This document shows positions 2,768-59,523 of a DNA stretch of 61,011 bases, in pieces (within the stretch, counting starts at the first letter, position 1; each line of letters starts with the position of its first letter). The translations under genes were made by a program, and so were the position numbers. The notes under the pieces were generated by a model. It did no database searches. It was not told the origin of the DNA and saw only the letters and a program-made list of their open reading frames with translations. The stretch is from a virus (lineage: Duplodnaviria > Caudoviricetes): positions 1 through 61,011 of the IMG/VR virus record IMGVR_UViG_3300007538_000027. One strand, 5' to 3'.

Positions 2768-2788
2768 GAATAATAATCATTATCATTT
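2768..2788. promoter_or_regulatory. Fur box-like palindrome
   Basis: GAATAATAATCATTATCATTT, 18/20 to AAATGATAATnATTATCATTT. Confidence 0.65.
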
Positions 2789-3004: not shown

Positions 3005-3484
3005 ATGACACGTATTAACACGGTTCACCCGTCCGACTTAACAAACGAATGGCTGATCGCAGAATGGCGAGAATTGCCGCGCATTGTAAACGAGCTAGAA
3101 AAACACCCGCAAAGATTTAACATTAATAAAATACCTGATCAATATACTTTAAATACGGGTCATGTAATGTTTTTCAGGGATAAACTTCTATACCTTGCAA
3201 GACGTCACAGATTAATCAGAAAGGAATTAAGAAAACGCGGCACTACTTTTAATTCTAAAATTAAAGTTAATCTGTATTACTTGACACCACACTTAAAGAG
3301 TGTAGCTTGTAACGATTGGACGCCCTCACAAGCTGATCATGGCATTTTAATTGAGAGACTGCAAGAACGCTTTGACCTCAGAAAGAAAGCCTACCATGTG
3401 ACGTTTGAAGGTGTTAAACATGTTATTGATTGTGAGAGATCATTCAATTGGTATTGTGGGAAGTTTTTATCAAAGTATTTTTAA
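3005..3484 (+). CDS. denV: pyrimidine dimer DNA glycosylase / endonuclease V
   Basis: N-terminal MTRIN...L...LIAEWRELPRI and Y.LNTGHVMFFRDKLLYL motifs of the T4 DenV family. Confidence 0.9.
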   Translation: MTRINTVHPSDLTNEWLIAEWRELPRIVNELEKHPQRFNINKIPDQYTLNTGHVMFFRDKLLYLARRHRLIRKELRKRGTTFNSKIKVNLYYLTPHLKSVACNDWTPSQADHGILIERLQERFDLRKKAYHVTFEGVKHVIDCERSFNWYCGKFLSKYF

Positions 3485-9445: not shown

Positions 9446-9739
9446 TTAAGTGGGATACTCTAATTTGTTTCTAGCCTCAAATTCTAAGTTAAGTTTGTGT
9501 ATCACTCCACCATGATCATTGACACTATTAATTAAACTTTGTATTACCTTGTCTGGTATACCGTCATAACCTAATAACAGTCCATCATAAAACACCTTCA
9601 TAAACTCTTTATCATTGTCAAGTAATGCACTCATAAACCAACTAGATGCCATTTCGGCAGCATCATTTACACTAAATATAATACCGTTGTCATCTAAGCT
9701 AAAAGTTTTCAAGTTCCCTGTTGTATGCTTGTTTATCAT
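9446..9739 (-). CDS. hypothetical protein
   Basis: overlaps upstream minus-strand gene. Confidence 0.6.
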   Translation of the reverse strand: MINKHTTGNLKTFSLDDNGIIFSVNDAAEMASSWFMSALLDNDKEFMKVFYDGLLLGYDGIPDKVIQSLINSVNDHGGVIHKLNLEFEARNKLEYPT

Positions 9740-10433
9740 TTAATTGTAGTTCCTCATCATTTTCAGTTATCAAACTATCTCTTTGTTCATTTCTCAAATC
9801 AAAGAGAATTTTAAAATCACCGTCTTTAAGTTCATCTTGCATTGAAAACTTAACACCAAAGATTTTCTTATCATAAAGTATGTTAGATGTCTTATCACCT
9901 TGAAGGTATAAACCTGTCATCAATTCATAATGTTTATTAAGTAAGAAATACTTGAGTTGTAAACTTGACCAACTAGGATCAGTTTTTTCATTGTTAAACA
10001 AGTCTAGTAGGTAATCGCGCTTACTTTCAGCATTGCGGAAAAACTTAGTTAGTTGGGAGGATTGTAATTTGTACCTATCATCATTAACAAGGTCCACAAC
10101 TTCCGAATACAAACACCTAGATAGATGTCCTGATTTACTTCTACTTGTTGAATAGGTGACTATCCCAAAAGCCTTAAAGTCTTCAATCTTCCTTTGTACG
10201 GTAGATATACTAGTACCACACTGTAAGGCTATATACTCTAAACTCATTGCTGTTTTAACTTTCTTTCTTGTATTGTAATTAAAACTAGAGAATAGATAAC
10301 AATATATAACCTTATGAGCTAACCCTAGTTTAAGTGTTAACTCTTTACCTTGAGAGGTATCTATTCGTAGTACCTTTTCAGCTTGTCTCAATATGGTAGG
10401 TATCTTGTCGAATGTATCTTTTAATGCAGTCAT
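9699..10433 (-). CDS. winged helix-turn-helix DNA-binding protein (replication-initiator-like)
   Basis: SLEYIALQCGTSISTVQRKIEDFKAFGIVTY HTH followed by a wing. Confidence 0.6.
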   Translation of the reverse strand: MTALKDTFDKIPTILRQAEKVLRIDTSQGKELTLKLGLAHKVIYCYLFSSFNYNTRKKVKTAMSLEYIALQCGTSISTVQRKIEDFKAFGIVTYSTSRSKSGHLSRCLYSEVVDLVNDDRYKLQSSQLTKFFRNAESKRDYLLDLFNNEKTDPSWSSLQLKYFLLNKHYELMTGLYLQGDKTSNILYDKKIFGVKFSMQDELKDGDFKILFDLRNEQRDSLITENDEELQLNDKQAYNRELENF

Positions 10434-10438
10434 ACATA

Positions 10439-10651
10439 TTATAATGACTTTTTAAGGATAAGAAACAACTCATAAGCGATTGCCATATCAAAGAGTAATC
10501 CAATCTTTTTGGCTTTACGTGCCCGATACTTTCTACTGTTAAACTGTTCAGCAGTCACAGCACCTGTTAAAAGGTCGTCTATGAGTTCCCTAGTCTGATG
10601 AGATAAATTAAAACTCTTTGTATATGCTTCTAGTGTGTTGTCATTAATCAT
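10439..10651 (-). CDS. hypothetical protein
   Basis: AAGGAG SD; first gene of small leftward operon. Confidence 0.6.
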   Translation of the reverse strand: MINDNTLEAYTKSFNLSHQTRELIDDLLTGAVTAEQFNSRKYRARKAKKIGLLFDMAIAYELFLILKKSL

Positions 10652-11250
10652 GTTTGTATTACTCCTTTTATGTACCTATGCAATAATGATACCAGTTATA
10701 AAACACTCACTCAATAGTAATGAATCAATAATATTATCTTATCGACATAATAGTGTCGTTTACACCAAAGTTCATAATAAAGTATAAGGTAATATCTTGT
10801 TGGTATTAAGTACCTTTACTGATGGTTAAATAATGTACTTCACCTATATTCATTTTGACCTATGTAGTAGATCCTTAGCTATCGCGAATTTAATAATTTT
10901 CCCAACTTTTTAGAATTGACAACACTGACAAAGCTACAACTGACAAATTGAATAGTGAAAACCAATTTTATGAATAGTGTATAATGAGTTTGGTTTGTAT
11001 GATGGGGTTTATTGAGGTAGGGTACATTTAAAATAGTACTTGAATTGTGATTGCTACAATACTAAAAAATAGCTTGACATATAAACCTAGATGCATTATG
11101 CAAAACAAAATACTACTAAATGATAATAATTATCATTAGCATTATTATTTGTAACAATGTCAGCTACTAAACAACTGGACACATTAAGCACAGGTTTATT
11201 GTTGAATGTCAACATATACCGTTATAACTAAATGTTATTAAAAACCTATA

Positions 11251-11267
11251 TGCATTACGCATGCCAA
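11251..11267 (-). promoter_or_regulatory. sigma54 (-24/-12)-like site
   Basis: TTGGCATGCGTAATGCA, GG-N10-GC spacing. Confidence 0.5.
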
Positions 11268-11485
11268 GATCTGAAGAATTGAGATCTATTTGTTTTGATA
11301 CCAGTATAAGGGTACAACATTATAAAGGCTTAAAACGCTTCCTATTGCGTTTAAGCAGAGAATGAGAATTATTATCGTTTAGATAAATTAATTTAGATTT
11401 ATTTTCAATTAGGGGTTGTTTTATTAATTCAAAGGAGTATACTCTTTATATCGAAACAAAACCTAACAAGTAAACGGGATTCAAA

Positions 11486-11722
11486 ATGTTAAAATTCACA
11501 CGTAAATATAAAGGTTGTTACACAGCTACCATTCAAGGTGTTACTTTTAGAGTTGAAGCTTTAGATGAGCCTTGCGGCAAGGATAACTGGGCTGTCAGGA
11601 TCGATGGTGATAGAGATTGTGATTGGGTAGCTTACTTTGTAACTAAAAGAGAATGTGTGGAAAGTGCAAACAGAACAGCAACATATTGCCTTGCACGTTT
11701 GATTAGAGAATTTGGAGTATAA
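11486..11722 (+). CDS. early hypothetical protein
   Basis: promoter 11416-11443 and SD. Confidence 0.65.
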   Translation: MLKFTRKYKGCYTATIQGVTFRVEALDEPCGKDNWAVRIDGDRDCDWVAYFVTKRECVESANRTATYCLARLIREFGV

Positions 11723-11939
11723 TATTATCATGTACACTAGAAATCACAGTAATCAGCTTATTGAAATTGAACTGAAAGGGAGATTATCTGTCAAGGTATT
11801 AAACCTAATCAGGACTGTTTATTTAAATCTAAATGATAATCATTACTATGTAAAATACAATAGTGATTATGTAAAGGTGTTAAAGGTAAGTAATGGTAAT
11901 GAAATATGGTGGAGGGGTAGTTTAGCACAATGCCAATGA
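11712..11939 (+). CDS. hypothetical protein
   Basis: follows upstream ORF, ends before terminator. Confidence 0.5.
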   Translation: MEYNIIMYTRNHSNQLIEIELKGRLSVKVLNLIRTVYLNLNDNHYYVKYNSDYVKVLKVSNGNEIWWRGSLAQCQ

Positions 11940-11960
11940 GAATAGTTATCGTTGAAATTT

Positions 11961-11985
11961 AGCCCACCTCTGGTGGGTTTTTTCA
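11961..11985 (+). terminator. intrinsic terminator
   Basis: AGCCCACC/GGTGGGTT stem plus T tract. Confidence 0.85.
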
Positions 11986-12001
11986 TACCTATAATTTACC
12001 C

Positions 12002-12082
12002 TGTTGATAACTTATCAACAACCATCATACTTAATGTGAATAACCCTGTGGATAAAACCTAATTTCAACGATCTATTTCTTT
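12002..12082. promoter_or_regulatory. four DnaA boxes plus an oriC-type 13-mer
   Basis: TGTTGATAA 12002, TTATCAACA 12012, TGTGAATAA 12035, TGTGGATAA 12047; GATCTATTTCTTT 12070-12082. Confidence 0.7.
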
Positions 12083-12192
12083 CTATACCAATGTAAAGGT
12101 AAACAAGATAATAGCTTAAATCGCTGTTTAAGAGGCTTATAATTAATATTGTAATTAGCTAATGTAATGTTGTGTTTAACACTATAATTTAA

Positions 12193-12240
12193 TTGGCACA
12201 GGATGTGCATAGTTTATTATGTTGGCACCAATTAGGTGCA
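12193..12240 (+). promoter_or_regulatory. sigma54-like site and NtrC-like box
   Basis: TTGGCACAGGATGTGCA 12193-12209; GGCACCAATTAGGTGCA 12224-12240 (GCAC-N7-GTGC). Confidence 0.5.
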
Positions 12241-13470
12241 ATAATGTAATGGCTGTCACTGTGTGACTAAGTGTTAGAAGTGTTGAGTATGTGATTAGAG
12301 GTAATGTAAGGCTTTACTTATAACCGCTAGGTTAACTAACATAATGGTAGAACCGTTGGTTCAATATATTAATGTGTGGAGGAGTGAAGGGGGAGAATTG
12401 TTAATGTATTACGAAGGAATGCTTAGGGTTATACCGTTAGGTATGAAATTGTATTAAGTACGAACCAACGGTTCAATAGTATAATGGTAGGTAACTTTTA
12501 AATTGTGATGACGGATGAAGTTGGCGAGCTAACGAGTGAGTGAAACGAACGAGGTTATGCTTAACAATCTTTCATCCCTTCACCTTCGATGCATCGCATC
12601 ACACTTTAATATAGTTGGTGGCTACACCCGCCACAATAGAGAACAATAACACTAATGATAATCATTACCATTTACACTGTGAATACTAATACAAATGATA
12701 AGTGTTCTCGTTTACAAATGTAATTAATTGGAACCGTTGAGGTTCAACTATAATAGTGTGCTAATAAGAATCATTCGTATTTAACTCAGGTTATACATGT
12801 GTATTAAAACTGGGTAAAGGTTAACGAGGTTGAATAGAGTTAGTTTGTGAGGTGTGTTGGTCTAAGTTGGTGCCGATTGTAGGCACAGCAAGGGTTTGAG
12901 AGGCATACAAATATTTCATATGGACGAAGATGATAATAAGTCTCATTCGCACTGGGTTAAGCACCACTCTTGGTGAACTTAAGGTTTACCCACATTATAA
13001 CCCACCCAACACTATACTATTGTGCCCACGGCACCACCACATACACCTGTCAGTCACCATTAATCCTCACACCAAAGGTGTAACATATAGATATTTTCTG
13101 TCCCACACAGGGACAAACAGAGGTGCCATTTTATTACCCCAAAAATAGGGGGTGGGTGTTTAGTAAACTCAACATTATAAATTTATCATACCTACCATAA
13201 TCTCTGTAAGCATCACAGTTAAGTTATAATTCTATAATAGTACATTGGCCTTACTAATAGTGTTACAGCCTCTTAGATGGCTTCTATGGAAGCTACAATG
13301 ATATTCGGTGATGTGTATATTGGTGTAGGATATTTTATGTAGGGGTTTATACAGGAATGGGGTGCTATATTTAGATTGGTAAAATCGGGAGGGGTGTATA
13401 ATTTGTAATATAACAACAATAAGGTTGCACAGGGTTAGGATGTACTGATAATAACATTAGAATAAAACTA

Positions 13471-13649
13471 CTGTTGTTATATACAGTGTATTAGTCTATT
13501 AATACAGTATACAAAGTATTGATATCCTTATTTAATATACCTGTTTATATGTACAGTGCTGTATGAATATACAGTAGTTAACATAATAGAATATCACACT
13601 AAATAATGAACAGTGTACACAATAATATTATAGCTGTACATTTATACAG
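13471..13649. promoter_or_regulatory. cluster of four LexA (SOS) boxes
   Basis: perfect CTGT-N8-ACAG with AT-rich spacers at 13471, 13541, 13559, 13634. Confidence 0.8.
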
Positions 13650-13934
13650 TATTAACCAACACATTCAGTTTAAAGTATTACAGTTGTAATCGTTAGCCAA
13701 CTAGATTAAAAACAATGTTTTCTATATTAATATTGGTATCTAATAGTAAATGGTGGATAAACTACTGTGTTATAATGTAATGAGGTGAGCTGAATGAAGC
13801 TGTGAGAGGAGATAATTAAGAAGTGTTATGGTTGTGAGGGTATTGTGTAAGACGGCTTAAAACGCTTCCTATAGAGTCATAGAATATACATAGAAAAACA
13901 CCACCTCAATTGTTATACTGAAGTGGTGTGATGT

Positions 13935-14159
13935 TTACTCCTTGTAACTTTCTAGTAACTCTTTAAACTCTCTTAGTACCATTAACATATCTGTATTACA
14001 TTGTGGTGGTAAGTCTAGAGGTGGTGCATAATAAATATTTTCACACCGTTGTATGAACTGTTCAATCTTCTCAGCAGAACGAATAAACTCATCCATTATC
14101 CATTCATCTGGACGCTCTACTCTCCAGTATTTTAAATGGTCACTTAGTTTAATTGACAT
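13935..14159 (-). CDS. hypothetical protein
   Basis: last gene of leftward operon. Confidence 0.65.
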   Translation of the reverse strand: MSIKLSDHLKYWRVERPDEWIMDEFIRSAEKIEQFIQRCENIYYAPPLDLPPQCNTDMLMVLREFKELLESYKE

Positions 14160-14355
14160 TATTCACCTCCTTACTTACTTTAATAATATGCTCCAGTAAA
14201 TAATCATTATCTTTGCAATATTCAATAAATTTGTCTAAAGTAACATACCCATCTGGACAACTACCATATAGTCTATTGTTAACTTCGAATTCATCTTTAA
14301 GGTACTTTAAATCCTCTGCTAGTTGCATTATTTTCTTAACCTTATCATCTACCAT
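14149..14355 (-). CDS. hypothetical protein
   Basis: GAGGAG SD; operon. Confidence 0.65.
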   Translation of the reverse strand: MVDDKVKKIMQLAEDLKYLKDEFEVNNRLYGSCPDGYVTLDKFIEYCKDNDYLLEHIIKVSKEVNNVN

Positions 14356-14370
14356 ATTGATTCTCCTCAG

Positions 14371-14691
14371 CTACTTAGCCACCCATTTAATACTACGAAC
14401 CTCTTTAGGTTCCACTTCAACCATATCATCAAATGACTGCCATGTGAACCCTGCATCTTCCCAACTGTTATCACCTGAGTATGTGCATACATCAAACATA
14501 AAATATCGTGGTGTATTGTCATCAATAATCTCAACTACACGAGACTCTTCTACACGCCAACGATACTCTACTGAATCACCTTGCCACTTAGCTGGGAAAC
14601 ATTCTGATAATGTCTCACGTAAACCTTCAATAGAGACATCATAACCTCTTTCAATATTATATTCAATCAATAATTGTGCTAATGTTTTCAT
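14371..14691 (-). CDS. hypothetical protein
   Basis: TAATG coupling. Confidence 0.7.
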   Translation of the reverse strand: MKTLAQLLIEYNIERGYDVSIEGLRETLSECFPAKWQGDSVEYRWRVEESRVVEIIDDNTPRYFMFDVCTYSGDNSWEDAGFTWQSFDDMVEVEPKEVRSIKWVAK

Positions 14692-15755
14692 TATTTATTA
14701 CCACTCCCTCTAATGTTAATGTAATCTACTTTGTCGTATGTACAACCTAATCCACCACAGGATTCACACTCATGTACTGGAGCGTTGATTGTATCCATTA
14801 AGGTGTATAAGTATAGCTTCATATTCTCAACTAAGTCTGCTAGGCCATCACCTTTGAAACCTTCAATTGGTGTGTAGTTACCATACTTTTTACTTGGACA
14901 CATTTCAAATATATCCACTTCTTTAGTGGAGATTGTTTGTGTTTTGAACTTAGGTTTAGCATAACTTCTACCATTACTCTTTTTAGTCTCTGTACTCTTC
15001 ACAAACGGTTTAATGTGAATTAGCTTCTTTACAGTCATACAGAACTCATAATCTGCTGTAATCCTAGCATACTTAGGGTTAATATTTTCCTTGATATAAT
15101 TACGTACAATGCTATAAGTAGTGTCTTGGTTGATATAACATGGACGATTGTGCAACACTAAGTCTGGTGTTAATAATTCCTCAAGTTCATAGTAATGTGC
15201 CACTGAAGTAATGTTATTCTCAACTACTTTGTCAGAGTAAGAGTTACGAGTAATAACACGAACCTTCATATCTTTGAAATTATTCTCAACTAAGGTGTGT
15301 TCAATAGTGCCTTTGTAATCTACTTCATATTCCACATCAACCATGACATCTGGTAATCTTTCCTTGACACGGTGATACAATCCTCTGTAAGCATAGTACT
15401 TACTTTCAGAACCAATATACCAATCACAATCTTCATCAATTTCATCAGCCTCAGCAGGAGTTAACACTTTAGGAATAACACCATCAATGTGTGTAGATTC
15501 ATCTCGTAATACCCAAGATACTCCTCCATAGCCACCAGATTGGTTCTTTTTAATAGAAGTGATTTCACTCTCACCTTCTAAGAAGTACCAATCACTTTTG
15601 TGTTCACTTTCAACTAAAGGTTTACCATTTAGTAAGGTTACATTGCAAATACTATCACGCTTCTTAAGATAGTTCCATTTAGAGTTTGCGTAGTACAACC
15701 CTTTCTCTGTATTGTATGCAACAAGACTCAATTTTTGTGTAGTCATTTTAATCAT
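14691..15755 (-). CDS. conserved-type phage protein, C-terminal CxxCxGxG
   Basis: 354-aa ORF, AAGGAG SD. Confidence 0.75.
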   Translation of the reverse strand: MIKMTTQKLSLVAYNTEKGLYYANSKWNYLKKRDSICNVTLLNGKPLVESEHKSDWYFLEGESEITSIKKNQSGGYGGVSWVLRDESTHIDGVIPKVLTPAEADEIDEDCDWYIGSESKYYAYRGLYHRVKERLPDVMVDVEYEVDYKGTIEHTLVENNFKDMKVRVITRNSYSDKVVENNITSVAHYYELEELLTPDLVLHNRPCYINQDTTYSIVRNYIKENINPKYARITADYEFCMTVKKLIHIKPFVKSTETKKSNGRSYAKPKFKTQTISTKEVDIFEMCPSKKYGNYTPIEGFKGDGLADLVENMKLYLYTLMDTINAPVHECESCGGLGCTYDKVDYINIRGSGNK

Positions 15756-30979: not shown

Positions 30980-31226
30980 CATTTTATCTTAATTTTCATT
31001 AAGGGTGGATCATATCATCTTCCGTTCTGGAAGTCGGACGCTTTTTCATTTAGTGACTAAACTAAACTACTTCCTGTTATTAAGCTTATTCGCATAAGCT
31101 CAGGTGATCTCTGAACCTTCCTACTCTGTAGGCTTGGCTGCTGATTGCCATCATCATTACATGTTAAGGTTTCCAGCAATTCATCCAATTTTCAACTTAC
31201 GTTCCCATAAGAGGCTGCATCAGTTT
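30980..31226 (-). mobile_element. group I self-splicing intron (247 nt, no ORF) in nrdA
   Basis: 5' exon ends in U, intron ends in G; P AAUUGCUGGAAA, Q AAUCAGCAG, R GUUCAGAGAUCA, S GAUGAUAUGAUCC; P1 CUGU/GCAG, P10 CUGAU/GUCAG; removal restores SNLCQE. Confidence 0.92.
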
Positions 31227-32502
31227 ACAGGTTAGAACTATAAATCTTATCTTTGTGTGGAGTATGGCGGTTTAATTCATCTGTTCTATGCAGATAAACC
31301 TGACCAGACTCTTGTCCTTGTACTAAGGCTTCAATTGCCAGCTTACGTGCATTAATATACTTACGTGGTTTAATTGACTTCTCATACTCTTCATATAGGT
31401 TATCAAAATTAGTCTGGTCTCCTTCGTACATAGCTTCGTATAATTCAGGTGAGTCCGCATAACTAACTAACATCCAATCTCTATTCTGATACACTTTCTT
31501 AGCGAATAGTCTATTGCTACCAAAAGAGTAATGAATACCATCGACCCTTACTTTAGTTGCAGTCTTCTTGCTCTTCCAAGTAAGAATATCCATTACCTCT
31601 GGGTCAAGACAGTTAAGATGCATAGTGGCACTACCACCGCGGGAATTCTGTAGATTAGCTGCCACAGCACTCTCAGTCATCTTGTAGTAAGGTCTCTTTC
31701 CCTGATGTATTGTAGTACCACCACGAACACCATCTCCCTTACTGCGTGTCTTTAAGTGAGAACCAATACCAGCACTTGCGCAGGTTAACATATATGCTAT
31801 GTGGTCTCCCGCAGCCAATGAGTCAGCCGTATCATGTGTGGTGAACGTAGCACAACTGGCGAATGATCGGCTCGGTGTGCGAAGATTAGTCATAAATGGA
31901 GTTGGTGCACAAATCTTCTTATCGCTTAAGTAGTGGTAATACTTAATAACATCCGTCATTCGTCTATCTAATGGCATATTCTTCATGTTAGCCATTGCCA
32001 TCCCCATATACATAAACTGAGGGGACTCTAAGGCAATATTCTTAATACGATTACGCAAAACGTACTTATCACTAATTTGTTTTATTTCTGGGTAAGAAGA
32101 CTTCAAGTCTTTAGAATGATCTATTACTTCTTGTAGTTTCTCAAAATCTTCTTCGCTATAAGGTAACTTCTCCCAATAGCCTTGACCTTCCATATTATCA
32201 TGATGTTGTTTTAGTGTAGGAATCTTTTTGAAACCACCGAAAGCTTCTTTGTATAAATTACCTGCAAGCACTCTACCAGCTAACATGAAATGTTTTTCAT
32301 CGAACTCTTCCACACAAGCATCAATAATAGCTTTATCTATATCTCTGGTAGTACATTTATCGCTTAATAACTTCAATGCTTTAAAAGATATATCAGACCA
32401 ATTCACTTTACGGGCTGCTGCCCATCTCATCTTCTTATTAAATTTCTCTGCGTCAAAGGGAACACTAGTTCCATCACTTTTAATTACAGTGGTAATACTC
32501 AA
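31227..32502 (-). CDS. nrdA: ribonucleotide reductase alpha subunit, exon 1 (spliced product 752 aa)
   Basis: N-terminal ATP cone, ESPQFMY, PTPFM, ASC, RGGSA; ends SSNL immediately before the catalytic Cys. Confidence 0.92.
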
Positions 32503-36547: not shown

Positions 36548-38149
36548 TCACCCCCTCCATTTTTTACATCTCTTTAAGGTAATCATAGTACGTTTACCAT
36601 TAGGGTATGTAACTACGTGACTGTGGCTCCAAGATGAACCACCAACAGCATTATATCCCATATTAAGTTTACCAGACACACCTGCTACCCACACGCCATC
36701 CAATATGTTTGCTGAGTGCTGATGTCCTATAGTCACCTTACAACCCCAAGCTCGGAATGTAGCAGTACTTGGTCTTGAGCCGTTATTTCCTTCTGAACCG
36801 TGACTCTCCTTACTAATACCAGCAACTTTGTATGGACTACTTCCATCTATAAACTCTACGTCATCCAAACCATCCACATACTTCTTCATTGCATACTCTA
36901 ACACACAAAAATCTTTATTCAAGCGTATATTTTGATAAGTTTTCAGTTGCATCTCTAAGAAGAATTCTGCATTAACAGGGTCATTACGATAATCCTCTTT
37001 ACGTAAGTATTGTTGCAATGCTAGGTCATGATTACTTTGTACCACAACAGTCTTTATATTGGGACGTAACATAGTCTTCATAAGGTTACCTGACGCAATT
37101 ACTTCATCCAACACACTCTCCGTCCCTTGCACATGCATCTTAAATTTGAAGTAAGGATCATTTATATTATGATGATTACGATTTTTCATGTCAAAGAAAT
37201 CATTCAAAAATTGAACGGAGGGTTTTAATACATCAATTATACCACCCTCCCCCCATGAAGTTTTTGCAACATCATCATCTATTTTAGCTGCATGTATATC
37301 CCCCCAGTTTATACCTGCAACGCAATGCCCCCCAGTAACACCATCTTTGGTGTAGTATTCCACTCCGTTTGCAACATCATAGAAATTACCAGTAATCTTT
37401 TCTCCGCTTAACTGCCTAACAAACCAATCACCTTCATCATCAATCTCAACTACCAACGCTGAGAAACTATGATGATGTTCTGCCAACTGCCCTGCTTTTT
37501 GTGGACGATATTGTCTTTGTGTTACAGTCCCTGTGGTGTACATAAACCTAGCTCCTGTATGTAACGGTGCTGGTAGGCTTAACATTTGTAACTTAGCATG
37601 TGGAATTATACAACTCTCTTGGTTTACGTAATTCTGCATACCACTCATAGGGTTTTTTGCAGTAGGTAAGATATTCAACTCACCACTCCACACTAAACCT
37701 TTAGCAATTTGACAACTCTGATCAACAATATAATCACGTATCTTTGGGTCAAACCAAGTATCGTCTGTAGTACCTGATTGGAAACCTTTCTTATTGTAGA
37801 TATAAGTACCTATCATTAATTCCGCATTATTGTGTTTGCAATAAACCTCTAATGCCTTAAGGAATCCATCGTGGACGTAGGTATTGTTCTGTGCTGATGT
37901 AAATACAAAACGTTTACCTTGTAATTTCCTACGTGATTCTTCTGGGCGTTTAATATAACCACCTGCAGTGGGTTTGTCCTCCTCCTTCTCCCAGAATTCA
38001 GTGTATGTTTCCTTTCTCAATAAGTCTCCAATAGTAGACTTACCAACTCCATAAATCTCAGCAATCTTACGACTTGATAAACCATCTTGTGATGTAAGTC
38101 GTTTGATTTCTATGATGTCATCATTACTAAATATACGTTTATTACTCAA
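36548..38149 (-). CDS. metallophosphoesterase with N-terminal HTH
   Basis: SSRKIAEIYGVGKSTI HTH; GDIH, DFFD, SNHD, HG, GHQH calcineurin-like motifs. Confidence 0.8.
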   Translation of the reverse strand: MSNKRIFSNDDIIEIKRLTSQDGLSSRKIAEIYGVGKSTIGDLLRKETYTEFWEKEEDKPTAGGYIKRPEESRRKLQGKRFVFTSAQNNTYVHDGFLKALEVYCKHNNAELMIGTYIYNKKGFQSGTTDDTWFDPKIRDYIVDQSCQIAKGLVWSGELNILPTAKNPMSGMQNYVNQESCIIPHAKLQMLSLPAPLHTGARFMYTTGTVTQRQYRPQKAGQLAEHHHSFSALVVEIDDEGDWFVRQLSGEKITGNFYDVANGVEYYTKDGVTGGHCVAGINWGDIHAAKIDDDVAKTSWGEGGIIDVLKPSVQFLNDFFDMKNRNHHNINDPYFKFKMHVQGTESVLDEVIASGNLMKTMLRPNIKTVVVQSNHDLALQQYLRKEDYRNDPVNAEFFLEMQLKTYQNIRLNKDFCVLEYAMKKYVDGLDDVEFIDGSSPYKVAGISKESHGSEGNNGSRPSTATFRAWGCKVTIGHQHSANILDGVWVAGVSGKLNMGYNAVGGSSWSHSHVVTYPNGKRTMITLKRCKKWRG

Positions 38150-48559: not shown

Positions 48560-48946
48560 TTATACTCCTCCTAATTTAAATTCATTACATTTAGTGTTTA
48601 CCCACTCAAGATAATCATTATAATCTAAGTTATGTTTACTTGCAATACTTTTATACTTAGGTGATAACATATCTTCCAATGTTTCTTCATACACCTCAGA
48701 TGGTTTGGTACTTTGGTTAAGTTTAATATCTCTACCAAGTATATTGTGTAAATCTTCCTCTGTATCACATTTACAACTACACTCAGGACAAGGTAGGTAT
48801 CCTGTACCATAGGCTGCTCCAGAGTTATAATCTTCTGGTCTTTCTGTGTAATGTACACTACAGAACCAATCAATACAGCACTTAGGGTAATTGTGAAATT
48901 CACCCCATACTTTAAAACTTTTAATTTCATCTTCGGTGTATGTCAA
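48560..48946 (-). CDS. Cys-rich hypothetical protein
   Basis: YPKCCI.WF...GTGYLPCPEC. Confidence 0.65.
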   Translation of the reverse strand: MTYTEDEIKSFKVWGEFHNYPKCCIDWFCSVHYTERPEDYNSGAAYGTGYLPCPECSCKCDTEEDLHNILGRDIKLNQSTKPSEVYEETLEDMLSPKYKSIASKHNLDYNDYLEWVNTKCNEFKLGGV

Positions 48947-59372: not shown

Positions 59373-59446
59373 GTTCCGTTAGCTCAGATGGATAGAGCAA
59401 CAGCCTTCTAAGCTGTGGGTCGAAAGTTCAAATCTTTCACGGGATA
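59373..59446 (+). tRNA. tRNA-Arg(UCU), no encoded CCA
   Basis: acceptor GTTCCGT/ACGGGAT, anticodon arm ACAGC-CTTCTAA-GCTGT, T arm GAAAG-TTCAAAT-CTTTC. Confidence 0.92.
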
Positions 59447-59447
59447 C

Positions 59448-59523
59448 GCAGTATTAACTCAGTTGGTAGAGTGTCTGATTTCCAATCAGAATGTCGAGAG
59501 TTCGAACCTCTCATACTGCTCCA
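59448..59523 (+). tRNA. tRNA-Gly(UCC)
   Basis: acceptor GCAGTAT/ATACTGC, U73, CCA; anticodon arm TCTGA-TTTCCAA-TCAGA; T loop TTCGAAC. Confidence 0.93.

What the first reader, a model, noticed from the sequence alone, without database searches (positions are those of the whole stretch)
10652..13934. Host DNA-binding-protein 'landing pad': a ~3-kb array of clustered Fur, LexA, DnaA, sigma54 and NtrC sites at the end of the early module
Seen: in an otherwise very compact genome, this stretch is almost all non-coding and lies largely where transcription converges. It holds homotypic clusters of operators for unrelated host proteins: 8 Fur boxes (11118-12948), 4 DnaA boxes in 54 bp (12002-12055), 4 perfect LexA boxes in 179 bp (13471-13649), two sigma54 -24/-12 sites (11251-11267 minus, 12193-12209 plus), an NtrC-like box (12224-12240), a possible HexR-like box (13404-13418) and repeated unassigned palindromes. 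Most lie downstream of the terminator at 11961 with no gene to regulate. Known: the T5 injection-stop region near the inner end of its terminal repeat contains repeats and DnaA-box-like sequences; multicopy operators titrate Fur and LexA; datA titrates DnaA. Inference: this is a protein-free DNA device. It may be (a) an injection stop or ratchet loaded by abundant host proteins, (b) a multi-regulon decoy that, once replicated to many copies, derepresses iron uptake and SOS and blocks host initiation, or (c) a protein shield for a genome end. I know of no description of such a multi-factor array.
Basis: partly seen in the sequence, partly recalled or inferred. Interest (0 to 1): 0.9.

Follow-up and report, generated by a model that had tools for sequence, protein, structure and literature searches.

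The report
Phage terminal control region with host-factor sites
The clusters of LexA, DnaA and Fur-type sites are real, but they sit in the non-coding region that carries this marine phage's terminal repeat, a likely replication origin and several promoters, so they look like host-sensing control elements and not a gene-free decoy.

Summary
The motif clusters are real and non-random. All 4 perfect LexA boxes of the 61-kb window lie in 179 bp. Five of 7 strong Fur-type boxes lie in the region. Four DnaA boxes lie in 54 bp.

The stretch is the largest ORF-free gap of a relative of Shewanella phages 1/4 and 1/40. In those two records the same gap holds an exact 381-bp terminal redundancy. Its start motif TGYTTAACAA, followed about 60-150 bp later by Fur-type boxes, recurs in 7 of 7 related genomes. 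The gap abuts a replication-initiator-like winged-helix gene.

One LexA box fills the spacer of a recA-like promoter aimed at the repeat. A sigma54-type promoter, found in 5 of 7 genomes, faces it from the other side. Four Fur-type boxes belong to a 1.08-kb cassette with two small genes that the nearest relative lacks.

The LexA and DnaA clusters occur only in the window and its closest relative. They are absent from 1/4 and 1/40, whose flanks are conserved.

Best reading (0.5): a composite terminal, origin and promoter region gated by host factors. A decoy or landing pad is not excluded (about 0.12). Host binding is untested.

The parts
9699..10433 (-). Replication-initiator-like winged-helix protein (244 aa). 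It is the first large gene to the left of the gap.
   Evidence: It matches phrog_9088 at 4.7e-78. It also gives weaker hits to four PHROGs annotated as replication initiation or DnaD-like (best 3.6e-8). 13 of 16 family members hit phrog_8102. The 1/4 orthologue carries HTH_36 at 27.9 bits. The AF2 model has pLDDT 74, and Foldseek lists plasmid RepA initiators at TMt about 0.5 among many winged-helix folds.
10652..10924 (.). Promoter region of the leftward initiator-like operon (72% AT).
   Evidence: It is collinear with 1/4 at 76% identity and with G001 at 88%.
10925..12001 (+). Lineage-specific 1.08-kb cassette. It holds a second copy of the GATCTATTTGTTT element (11283), ORFs 11486-11722 and 11730-11939, four Fur-type boxes (11121, 11363, 11834, 11937) and a terminator at 11961-11979.
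   Evidence: It is absent from G001, where window 10924 joins to 12002.
12002..12055 (.). DnaA-box cluster. There are two pairs, with gaps of 1 nt and 3 nt.
   Evidence: The boxes are listed. G001 keeps two perfect boxes here although the surrounding 60 columns have diverged. 1/4 has none in its gap, and 1/40 has one.
12056..12193 (.). AT-rich 138 bp (75% AT) containing GATCTATTTCTTT at 12070-12082.
   Evidence: Composition is and the motif. The element aligns in 1/4 and 1/40 (window 11281-11357) and is found in G001. Its likeness to the E. coli oriC 13-mer is recalled, not tested.
12194..12209 (+). Sigma54-type -24/-12 element (TGGCAC-N5-GTGCA) pointing rightward at the terminal-repeat equivalent.
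   Evidence: It is listed. TGGCAC-N6-TGCAT is found in the gaps of the window, G001, 1/4, 1/40 and Vibrio phage 1.121.O. The last is a perfect consensus on the minus strand.
12224..12245 (+). Palindrome GGCACC-N5-GGTGCA running into an extended -10-like TGCAATAAT. It is followed by a G-rich stretch without ORFs (GC skew +0.46 over 12194-12562).
   Evidence: It is identical in G001. The promoter reading was made by eye.
12350..12461 (+). 112-bp tandem duplication between GAACC-N3-GGTTC palindromes. A third palindrome lies at 12731-12745. Each palindrome lies just upstream of a TATAAT-like hexamer.
   Evidence: these palindromes occur nowhere else in the window. G001 has a single copy.
12563..12958 (.). 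Equivalent of the 381-bp direct terminal redundancy of phages 1/4 and 1/40. It begins right after TGCTT in TGCTTAACAAT and holds Fur-type boxes at 12656, 12696, 12759 and 12931.
   Evidence: Both records have an exact 381-bp end overlap. TGYTTAACAA occurs in all 7 gaps examined, and a second TGCTTAA lies 373-398 bp downstream in 5 of 7 (inverted in the window).
13322..13336 (+). Conserved element GGTGTAGGATATTTT, followed by a G run.
   Evidence: It is found in the gaps of 6 of 7 genomes and almost nowhere else in the sequence held. It forms a conserved block in the 6-sequence alignment, which gave no consensus RNA structure.
13471..13649 (.). Four perfect LexA boxes at 13471, 13541, 13559 and 13634. 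Boxes 2 and 3 are in tandem with an 18-bp period.
   Evidence: 3 of 4 are kept in G001.
13627..13655 (-). SOS-type promoter TTAATA-17-TATAAT with LexA box 4 filling the spacer. It fires leftward over boxes 3, 2 and 1 toward the terminal-repeat equivalent.
   Evidence: It scores 10 of 12. In G001 the -35 reads TTAACA with the same spacing. The likeness to the E. coli recA promoter is recalled.
13768..13776 (+). Extended -10-like TGTTATAAT. It heads a G-rich unit paralogous to the one at 12236-12330.
   Evidence: (repeat families D16, D17, D19).
13898..13929 (-). Terminator of the long leftward operon that ends with the genes at 13935-14159 and Gad1.
   Evidence: 13 pairs, followed by TTTTTCT.

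Best explanation
The stretch is the phage's main non-coding control region, built around its terminal repeat.

Shown:
- It is homologous to the gap that carries the 381-bp terminal redundancy of Shewanella phages 1/4 and 1/40.
- It lies beside an initiator-like winged-helix gene.
- It carries conserved cis-elements: TGYTTAACAA, Fur-type boxes about 60-150 bp further on, a GGATATTYT element and a sigma54-type promoter.
- It also carries lineage-specific additions: the DnaA cluster, the LexA cluster and a two-gene cassette.

Inferred mechanism:
1. The packaged genome ends at the TGCTTAA motifs, so the boxes at 12656-12945 sit inside the repeat at both ends of the genome.
2. The DnaA boxes, the AT-rich GATCT element and the neighbouring initiator form or assist a replication origin.
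3. Host LexA represses a recA-like promoter, with three further operators downstream, that transcribes toward the repeat. A sigma54-type promoter faces it from the other side. Transcription across the repeat and origin is therefore coupled to host DNA damage and to a host sigma54 activator.
4. The Fur-type boxes are operators. Some overlie sigma70-like promoters and others lie in the repeat. They are bound either by host Fur or by a phage DNA-binding protein such as the small terminase.

In short, host factors are used as sensors and cofactors at ordinary cis-functions (origin, ends, promoters), and not as targets to be soaked up.
For: Terminal repeat:
- Both 1/4 and 1/40 have an exact 381-bp end overlap. 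In both, the overlap starts right after TGCTT and ends in ...AGTTGCT.
- TGYTTAACAA is found in 7 of 7 gaps. A second TGCTTAA lies 373-398 bp on in 5 of 7.

Fur-type boxes are enriched in every gap (<=2 mismatches):
- window 5 of 7;
- G001 3 of 6, 1/40 3 of 9 unique and 1/4 2 of 4 unique;
- Vibrio phage 1.063.O 3 of 9 and 1.121.O 2 of 9;
- L140 has 1.

Boxes behave as operators:
- In 1.121.O the 5 other boxes with <=1 mismatch (5 of 5) are intergenic and just upstream of genes. Those before the portal and tail sheath genes read box-N7-TATAAT and box-N7-TATACT.
- In the window the boxes at 11121 and 11834 overlie promoter-like sites.

SOS promoter: the site is and is conserved in G001.

Initiator. 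In Vibrio phage 1.063.O a different HTH_36 protein occupies the same position, with TGTTCAC-TGTGAACA repeats beside it.

Origin: G001 keeps two perfect DnaA boxes in an otherwise diverged stretch.

Sigma54: the motif is present in 5 of 7 gaps.
Against: - No expression, binding or terminus data exist for this phage. No RNA run was listed.
- The terminal redundancy is not annotated in the two records. It could be an assembly overlap, although identical length and identical boundary motifs in two phages argue against that.
- The LexA and DnaA clusters are absent from 1/4 and 1/40, so neither is essential to the region's core function.
- No ORF and no conserved RNA structure was found for the proposed transcripts. 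Rfam gave 0 hits, the best fold z-score was -2.3, and RNAalifold predicted 0 pairs.
- The sigma54 site lacks a recognisable upstream activator site, and none of the 5 phage records searched encodes a sigma54 activator.
- The initiator assignment rests on a generic winged-helix domain.
- Boxes 1-3 of the LexA cluster have no promoter of their own, which would also fit pure titration.
Confidence: 0.5

Rival explanations
1. Multi-regulon decoy. Once the genome is replicated to hundreds of copies, the arrays soak up LexA, Fur and DnaA. This derepresses SOS and iron uptake and blocks host initiation.
For: The homotypic clusters go far beyond what one promoter needs: 4 LexA boxes, 7-9 Fur-type boxes and 4 DnaA boxes. 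LexA boxes 1-3 and the four boxes inside the repeat have no promoter of their own. Fur-type boxes persist in gene-free gaps across 7 genomes. The copy-number arithmetic is plausible, but only from recalled protein abundances.
Against: The LexA and DnaA clusters are missing in 1/4 and 1/40. Several boxes do overlie promoters. In relatives the same box type sits before portal and sheath genes, which fits an operator role. By inference, a phage with an A1-like gene may degrade host DNA early, which would make derepression of host regulons pointless.
Confidence: 0.12
2. Injection stop, ratchet or end shield. Host proteins bound near the entering end pause DNA entry, as proposed for the T5 iss, or protect the ends.
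For: The region contains the inferred genome ends. The DnaA boxes form pairs, one with a 3-nt gap. The T5 preprint reports pairs with 3-nt gaps (passages read). An A1-like protein is encoded at 36548-38149. Four boxes lie within the repeat, about 90-370 bp from an end.
Against: The repeat in relatives is about 381 bp, not about 10 kb. Only about 1 kb and no gene (in G001) would lie ahead of either cluster, so a stop would admit nothing to express (inference). The A1-like gene is 24 kb away. The DnaA cluster is absent from 1/4 and 1/40.
Confidence: 0.08
3. The conserved 'Fur boxes' are not Fur sites. They are recognition sites of a phage protein, such as the small terminase at a cosB-like site beside the cut site or a phage transcription factor. 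Only the LexA and DnaA boxes bind host proteins.
For: The order is fixed: TGYTTAACAA, then boxes about 60-150 bp on, in 7 of 7 genomes from Shewanella and Vibrionaceae hosts plus one metagenome contig of unnamed host, while the surrounding sequence does not align. The boxes lie inside the terminal redundancy. In 1.121.O the boxes precede late genes, which a host iron repressor would be an odd choice to control.
Against: The consensus over 30 sites reproduces the Fur 7-1-7 palindrome, including the AA and TT flanks. However, the sites were chosen by likeness to that consensus, and they were oriented by a regex on the downstream flank, which biases the flank columns on that side. One window site is a perfect match. 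No FUR-family gene is found in 5 phage records, but that does not exclude another fold.
Confidence: 0.2
4. The motifs are chance matches in AT-rich non-coding DNA.
For: The region is 67% AT, and Fur-like words are AT-rich. The second sigma54 site, the HexR-like box and several 3-4-mismatch Fur boxes are at chance level.
Against: 0 of 200 shuffles reach the LexA count or the strong Fur count. The window as a whole is 65% AT, yet it holds 0 LexA boxes and 2 strong Fur boxes outside the region.
Confidence: 0.02

Closest known systems
T5 injection-stop region (Repeat Region 3 of the left terminal repeat)
   Same: It is a large untranslated stretch near a terminal repeat, full of repeats and palindromes, with paired DnaA boxes. 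The phage also encodes an A1-like protein (passages of 10.1101/866236 read).
   Different: T5 has a 10-kb repeat, 8 boxes set in long inverted repeats, and pre-early genes ahead of the stop. Here the repeat is about 0.4 kb, there are 4 boxes, no genes lie ahead, and LexA, Fur-type and sigma54 sites are present as well. The cluster is not conserved in 1/4 and 1/40.
Lambda cos (cosN cut site plus cosB with terminase R sites and a host IHF site); recalled, not tested
   Same: A cut-site motif is followed within about 60-150 bp by an array of protein-binding boxes, possibly including a host factor.
   Different: These phages appear to have direct terminal repeats, not cohesive ends. The box sequence is that of Fur, not IHF or gpNu1. 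Binding is unknown.
DnaA-dependent origins next to an initiator gene (oriC, P1 oriR, iteron plasmids); recalled
   Same: Clustered DnaA boxes lie beside an AT-rich stretch with a GATCT-led 13-mer-like word and a winged-helix initiator-like gene.
   Different: No iterons for the phage initiator were identified in the window. The DnaA boxes are lineage-specific. Origin activity was not tested.
SOS promoters with LexA in the spacer (recA and colicin genes, recalled; GIL01 P1, listing and start of abstract of PMC4551915)
   Same: A -35 hexamer is followed directly by CTGT-N8-ACAG and then TATAAT, with multiple operators.
   Different: This is a large phage whose relatives are lytic isolates. No ORF lies downstream. 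Three further boxes lie inside the transcribed stretch.
Titration sites (datA for DnaA; the Fur titration assay with multicopy Fur boxes); recalled
   Same: Homotypic clusters of high-affinity sites sit on a replicon that reaches high copy number.
   Different: There is no evidence of titration here. Several sites overlap promoters.

Membership tests
T5-type injection stop signal | It lies near the inner end of a long (about 10 kb) terminal repeat that carries pre-early genes. | tested here: not met
   The terminal redundancy in 1/4 and 1/40 is 381 bp. No gene lies between either cluster and the inferred end in G001.
T5-type injection stop signal | Eight DnaA boxes in pairs with 3-nt gaps inside long inverted repeats, conserved across relatives (as stated in 10.1101/866236). 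| tested here: not met
   There are four boxes. One pair has a 3-nt gap and the other a 1-nt gap. No 131-bp inverted repeat was found. The cluster is absent in 1/4 and 1/40.
LexA (SOS) operator | The gammaproteobacterial palindrome CTGT-N8-ACAG with an AT-rich centre. | tested here: met
   There are four perfect matches, 4 of 4 in the window. The consensus is recalled.
LexA (SOS) operator | It overlaps a promoter that it represses. | tested here: inconclusive
   Box 4 fills the spacer of TTAATA-17-TATAAT. No comparable promoter was found for boxes 1-3. There is no expression data.
LexA (SOS) operator | It is bound by host LexA. | not testable with these tools
   No LexA_DNA_bind or Peptidase_S24 gene is present in the window, so a host protein is the likeliest binder.
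Fur box | It matches TGATAAT-N-ATTATCA or the 19-bp consensus. | tested here: met
   Five sites have <=2 mismatches and one is perfect. The consensus is recalled.
Fur box | It is bound by Fur and confers iron-dependent control. | not testable with these tools
   A phage protein could bind the same sequence. No FUR-family gene is found in 5 related records.
DnaA-dependent replication origin | Clustered DnaA boxes with an adjacent AT-rich unwinding element. | tested here: met
   Four boxes lie in 54 bp, followed by 138 bp at 75% AT.
DnaA-dependent replication origin | It shows origin activity and is conserved among relatives. | tested here: inconclusive
   The boxes are kept in G001 (2 perfect) but not in 1/4 or 1/40. 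Activity cannot be tested here.
Sigma54 promoter | GG at -24 and GC at -12 with fixed spacing. | tested here: met
   The site at 12194 has 1 mismatch. The motif is present in 5 of 7 gaps and is a perfect consensus in Vibrio phage 1.121.O.
Sigma54 promoter | An upstream activator site and a cognate AAA+ activator. | tested here: inconclusive
   No Sigma54_activat gene is found in 5 phage records. The NtrC-like palindrome lies downstream, not upstream. A host activator cannot be assessed.
Direct terminal repeat (packaging ends) | The same sequence is present at both ends of virion DNA, with defined boundaries. | tested here: inconclusive
   Two relatives' records show an exact 381-bp overlap with shared boundary motifs. 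No read data are available for this phage.

The most novel reading that the evidence does not exclude
A family of marine myophages infecting Shewanella and Vibrionaceae carries arrays of operators for host global regulators in and around its short terminal repeat. Fur-type boxes are present in every member examined. LexA and DnaA boxes and a sigma54 site are present in some. On this reading the arrays work as DNA alone. They recruit host proteins to the genome ends for protection, end pairing or packaging. Once the genome is amplified, they drain Fur, LexA and DnaA from the host, turning on iron uptake and SOS and stopping host initiation.
Probability: 0.12. Interest if true: 0.85.

Novelty: new variant of a known kind. 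Interest (0 to 1): 0.55.

Why it matters
If the reading holds, large lytic-type marine phages couple replication, or transcription across their genome ends, to three host signals. These are DNA damage through LexA, iron status through Fur (or a look-alike phage factor), and a sigma54 activator.

A Fur-type box set beside a conserved cut-site motif was found in all seven related genomes examined. That makes it a concrete, testable candidate for a host cofactor in packaging, or for iron sensing by phages in iron-poor seas.

The work also supplies a map of the ends and control region for phage 1/4, which is a laboratory phage. Two literature searches listed no description of such a multi-factor region (listings only).

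Tried and rejected
Searches that led nowhere:
- Megablast of 10000-14500 against the phage collection gave no match. The relatives were found through a protein query and through distant blastn.
- Rfam gave nothing in the region, either at gathering thresholds or at E <= 1 over 10600-14000 (0 hits).
- Single-sequence RNA folds of six candidate transcripts were weak. The z-scores ran from -0.44 to -2.31.
- RNAalifold on six homologous stretches to the right of the repeat predicted 0 pairs. I therefore dropped the idea of a conserved structured RNA, although unstructured transcripts remain possible.
- ORFs of 20 aa or more in 11950-13935 gave no convincing small protein. A 21-aa hydrophobic frame at 13599-13664 starts upstream of the predicted start site, so I set it aside.

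Phage-encoded binders, none found:
- LexA_DNA_bind and Peptidase_S24 in the window;
- FUR in 5 related records (one 13.5-bit hit with three stop codons in 1/40);
- Sigma54_activat in 5 records.

Relatives:
- Two IMG/VR scans with flanking proteins returned only G001 and the 1/4 record.
- The metagenome scan returned G001 again (L139, 100% identical over 14,732 bp) and one distant contig, L140.
- KASIA, pf16 and Slicko01 were only pattern-scanned as whole records. They show no LexA cluster. Their Fur-type counts are 3, 0 and 2, against controls of 0, 0 and 3. Their gaps were not examined.

Sequencing runs: no RNA holder was listed, and there were only two small-share marine metagenome contig sets.

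Initiator gene: the window's 244-aa protein and the positional equivalent in Vibrio phage 1.063.O show no BLASTP similarity, nor do the two 70-aa neighbours. Only the HTH_36 domain is shared. A PDB sequence search gave nothing useful.

The array type is therefore not unique to this phage.

Supplementary files of papers were not requested.

Full report
WHAT THE WINDOW IS. The window is a 61-kb viral contig estimated at 45% complete. Its A1-like protein (36548-38149) is 94% identical to that of Shewanella phages 1/40 and 1/4 from Baltic Sea ice. It is 44-55% identical to proteins of Shewanella phage KASIA, Pseudomonas phage pf16, two Vibrio phages and Alishewanella phages. A closer relative, here called G001, is an IMG/VR contig of 103 kb with 88-92% nucleotide identity. 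A metagenome contig, L139, is the same phage (100% identical over 14,732 bp).

CHECK OF THE OBSERVATION. The stretch 10434-14212 is the longest run of the window without an ORF of 80 aa or more. It is 3,779 bp long, and the next longest is 1,116 bp. The region was 67% AT against 65% for the window as a whole, so AT-richness alone does not explain the clusters.

Counts against 200 dinucleotide shuffles of the region:

| Motif | In region / in window | Shuffle mean | Shuffles reaching the count |
|---|---|---|---|
| LexA CTGT-N8-ACAG, 0 mismatches | 4 / 4 | 0.09 | 0 of 200 |
| Fur 7-1-7, <=2 mismatches | 5 / 7 | 0.14 | 0 of 200 |
| Fur 19-mer, <=5 mismatches | 10 / 16 | 0.45 | 0 of 200 |
| DnaA 9-mer, <=1 mismatch | 7 / 35 | 1.79 | 2 of 200 |
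| Sigma54, <=1 mismatch | 1 / 2 | 0.07 | 13 of 200 |

Four of the DnaA boxes lie within 54 bp. The sigma54 site at 12194 is not significant on its own. The minus-strand sigma54 site at 11251 has two mismatches. The HexR-like box lies in a segment that has diverged even in G001, and I did not score it. Two small ORFs (78 and 69 aa) followed by a terminator occupy 11486-11979. Four of the eight Fur boxes lie upstream of that terminator.

THE REGION HOLDS THE GENOME ENDS OF ITS RELATIVES. In 1/4 and 1/40 the homologous non-coding gap spans the ends of the records. Both records end with an exact copy of their first 381 bp. No repeat feature is annotated there. The redundancy starts right after TGCTT in ...AGTTGCTTAACAATG. 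It ends in ...AGTTGCT and is followed by TAAT, so the same word, AGTTGCTTAA, marks both boundaries.

The window aligns to this segment, which places its equivalent at about 12563-12958. The word TGYTTAACAA is found on the same strand in the gaps of all seven genomes examined: the window, G001, 1/4, 1/40, Vibrio phages 1.063.O and 1.121.O, and contig L140. A second TGCTTAA lies 373-398 bp downstream in five of them, inverted in the window. I take this as good but indirect evidence for a direct terminal repeat of about 0.4 kb. An assembly overlap is not strictly excluded.

WHAT IS CONSERVED AND WHAT IS NOT.
- Fur-type boxes follow the TGYTTAACAA word by about 60-150 bp in all seven genomes.
- They are enriched in each gap. 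The counts are G001 3 of 6, 1/40 3 of 9 unique, 1/4 2 of 4 unique, 1.063.O 3 of 9 and 1.121.O 2 of 9, and L140 1.
- A sigma54-type word, TGGCAC-N6-TGCAT, is in five of the seven gaps. In 1.121.O it is a perfect consensus, on the other side of the boxes but pointing toward them.
- A GGTGTAGGATATTTT-like element is in six of the seven gaps.
- The LexA cluster, by contrast, is found only in the window and G001 (3 of 4 boxes kept). Whole-record scans of 1/4, 1/40, KASIA, pf16, both Vibrio phages and Slicko01 show only scattered background matches.
- The DnaA cluster is likewise limited to the window and G001, which keeps two perfect boxes in a stretch that has otherwise diverged.
- Window 10925-12001 is absent from G001. 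This segment holds the two small ORFs, the terminator, four Fur-type boxes and a second copy of the GATCTATTTGTTT element.
- The window also has a 112-bp tandem duplication at 12350-12461.

LINKS TO ORDINARY CIS-FUNCTIONS.
(a) Promoters.
- LexA box 4 fills the 17-bp spacer of TTAATA...TATAAT on the minus strand (13655-13627, 10 of 12). G001 has TTAACA with the same spacing. This is the layout I recall for the recA promoter.
- That promoter fires leftward over boxes 3, 2 and 1 toward the repeat equivalent. The sigma54-type site fires rightward toward it.
- The boxes at 11121 and 11834 overlie promoter-like sites with 17-bp spacers.
- In Vibrio phage 1.121.O the five other boxes with <=1 mismatch are all intergenic and just upstream of genes. 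Two read box-N7-TATAAT (portal) and box-N7-TATACT (tail sheath).
- The NtrC-like palindrome runs into an extended -10-like TGCAATAAT. A paralogous unit starts at TGTTATAAT (13768).

(b) Origin.
- The gene to the left (9699-10433) belongs to a family in which 13 of 16 members hit a PHROG annotated as replication initiation.
- Its 1/4 orthologue carries HTH_36.
- The AF2 model (pLDDT 74) matches winged-helix folds, including plasmid RepA initiators, at modest scores.
- In Vibrio phage 1.063.O an unrelated HTH_36 protein sits at the same place, with TGTTCAC-TGTGAACA repeats beside it.
- The DnaA boxes are followed by 138 bp at 75% AT that contain GATCTATTTCTTT. This word is shared with 1/4, 1/40 and G001 and resembles the oriC 13-mers as I recall them.

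WHAT IS NOT SHOWN. Nothing here shows that LexA, Fur, DnaA or sigma54 holoenzyme binds the region, that any of these promoters fires, or where this phage's DNA ends.
- No structured RNA or small protein was found for the proposed transcripts.
- The Fur-type boxes could be sites of a phage protein. Their fixed place beside the cut-site word recalls lambda cosB, and their presence before late genes is odd for an iron repressor.
- Against that, their consensus reproduces the Fur palindrome and one site is perfect. The 30 sites were, however, selected by likeness to that consensus, and they were oriented by a regex on the downstream flank.
- None of the five related records searched holds a FUR-family gene.

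The sites are real and the link to genome ends is supported. The claim that there is nothing to regulate is not supported.

An injection stop of the T5 kind is unlikely. The repeat is about 0.4 kb, and no gene would lie ahead of either cluster. One DnaA pair does have the 3-nt gap that the T5 preprint describes (passages).

Titration and end shielding remain possible and untested.

COMPARISON AND NOVELTY. Each module has a known counterpart: SOS promoters, DnaA-box origins, cos or pac regions with host cofactors, and the T5 untranslated repeat region. What seems new is their combination around a short terminal repeat, and a Fur-type box array conserved across the seven genomes of this group that were examined. 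Two full-text searches listed no paper describing such a region (listings only). I rate it a new variant of a known kind, with interest 0.55.

Noticed in passing
window 14691-15755 (-): This is a strong Gad1 (Gabija anti-defence 1) homologue (Pfam 6.9e-95). It is one of the last genes of the long leftward operon, and three small ORFs lie between it and the terminator at the gap.
   Followed up: no
window 30987-31238 (-): Rfam gives a group I catalytic intron at 66.1 bits, inside the leftward gene block. I did not identify the host gene.
   Followed up: no
window 2771-2785: A further Fur-type box with 1 mismatch lies in a 543-bp intergenic gap, about 230 bp upstream of the gene at 3005-3484. 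Another box with 2 mismatches lies at 48609.
   Followed up: partly
L095:28-115, L034:759-838, L033:2313-2385: Unrelated viral contigs carry arrays of 3-4 LexA-like boxes with an 18-bp period. In L095 and L034 a G run follows the array. In all three the array sits just upstream of a terminase large-subunit gene.
   Followed up: partly
L082:118-330: A LexA-like box array at a contig start lies within about 100 bp of a perfect sigma54 consensus. Tail-fibre, terminase and portal-like genes follow. This is the same pairing of site types as in the window, in an unrelated contig.
   Followed up: partly
L137:4690-4870 (Vibrio phage 1.063.O): Three to five copies of the palindrome TGTTCAC-TGTGAACA lie next to the HTH_36 gene. 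They look like iterons.
   Followed up: no
window 12194-12562: GC skew is very strong here (+0.46), with the plus strand G-rich, and there is no ORF. Short GC-rich palindromes of differing sequence are spaced through this stretch and through its counterpart in 1/4.
   Followed up: partly
window 59373-59523: tRNA-Arg(TCT) and tRNA-Gly(TCC) lie back to back. A paper on phage 1/4 mentions tRNA-Arg(UCU) and a tRNA-Gly that it writes with anticodon CCU (passage).
   Followed up: no
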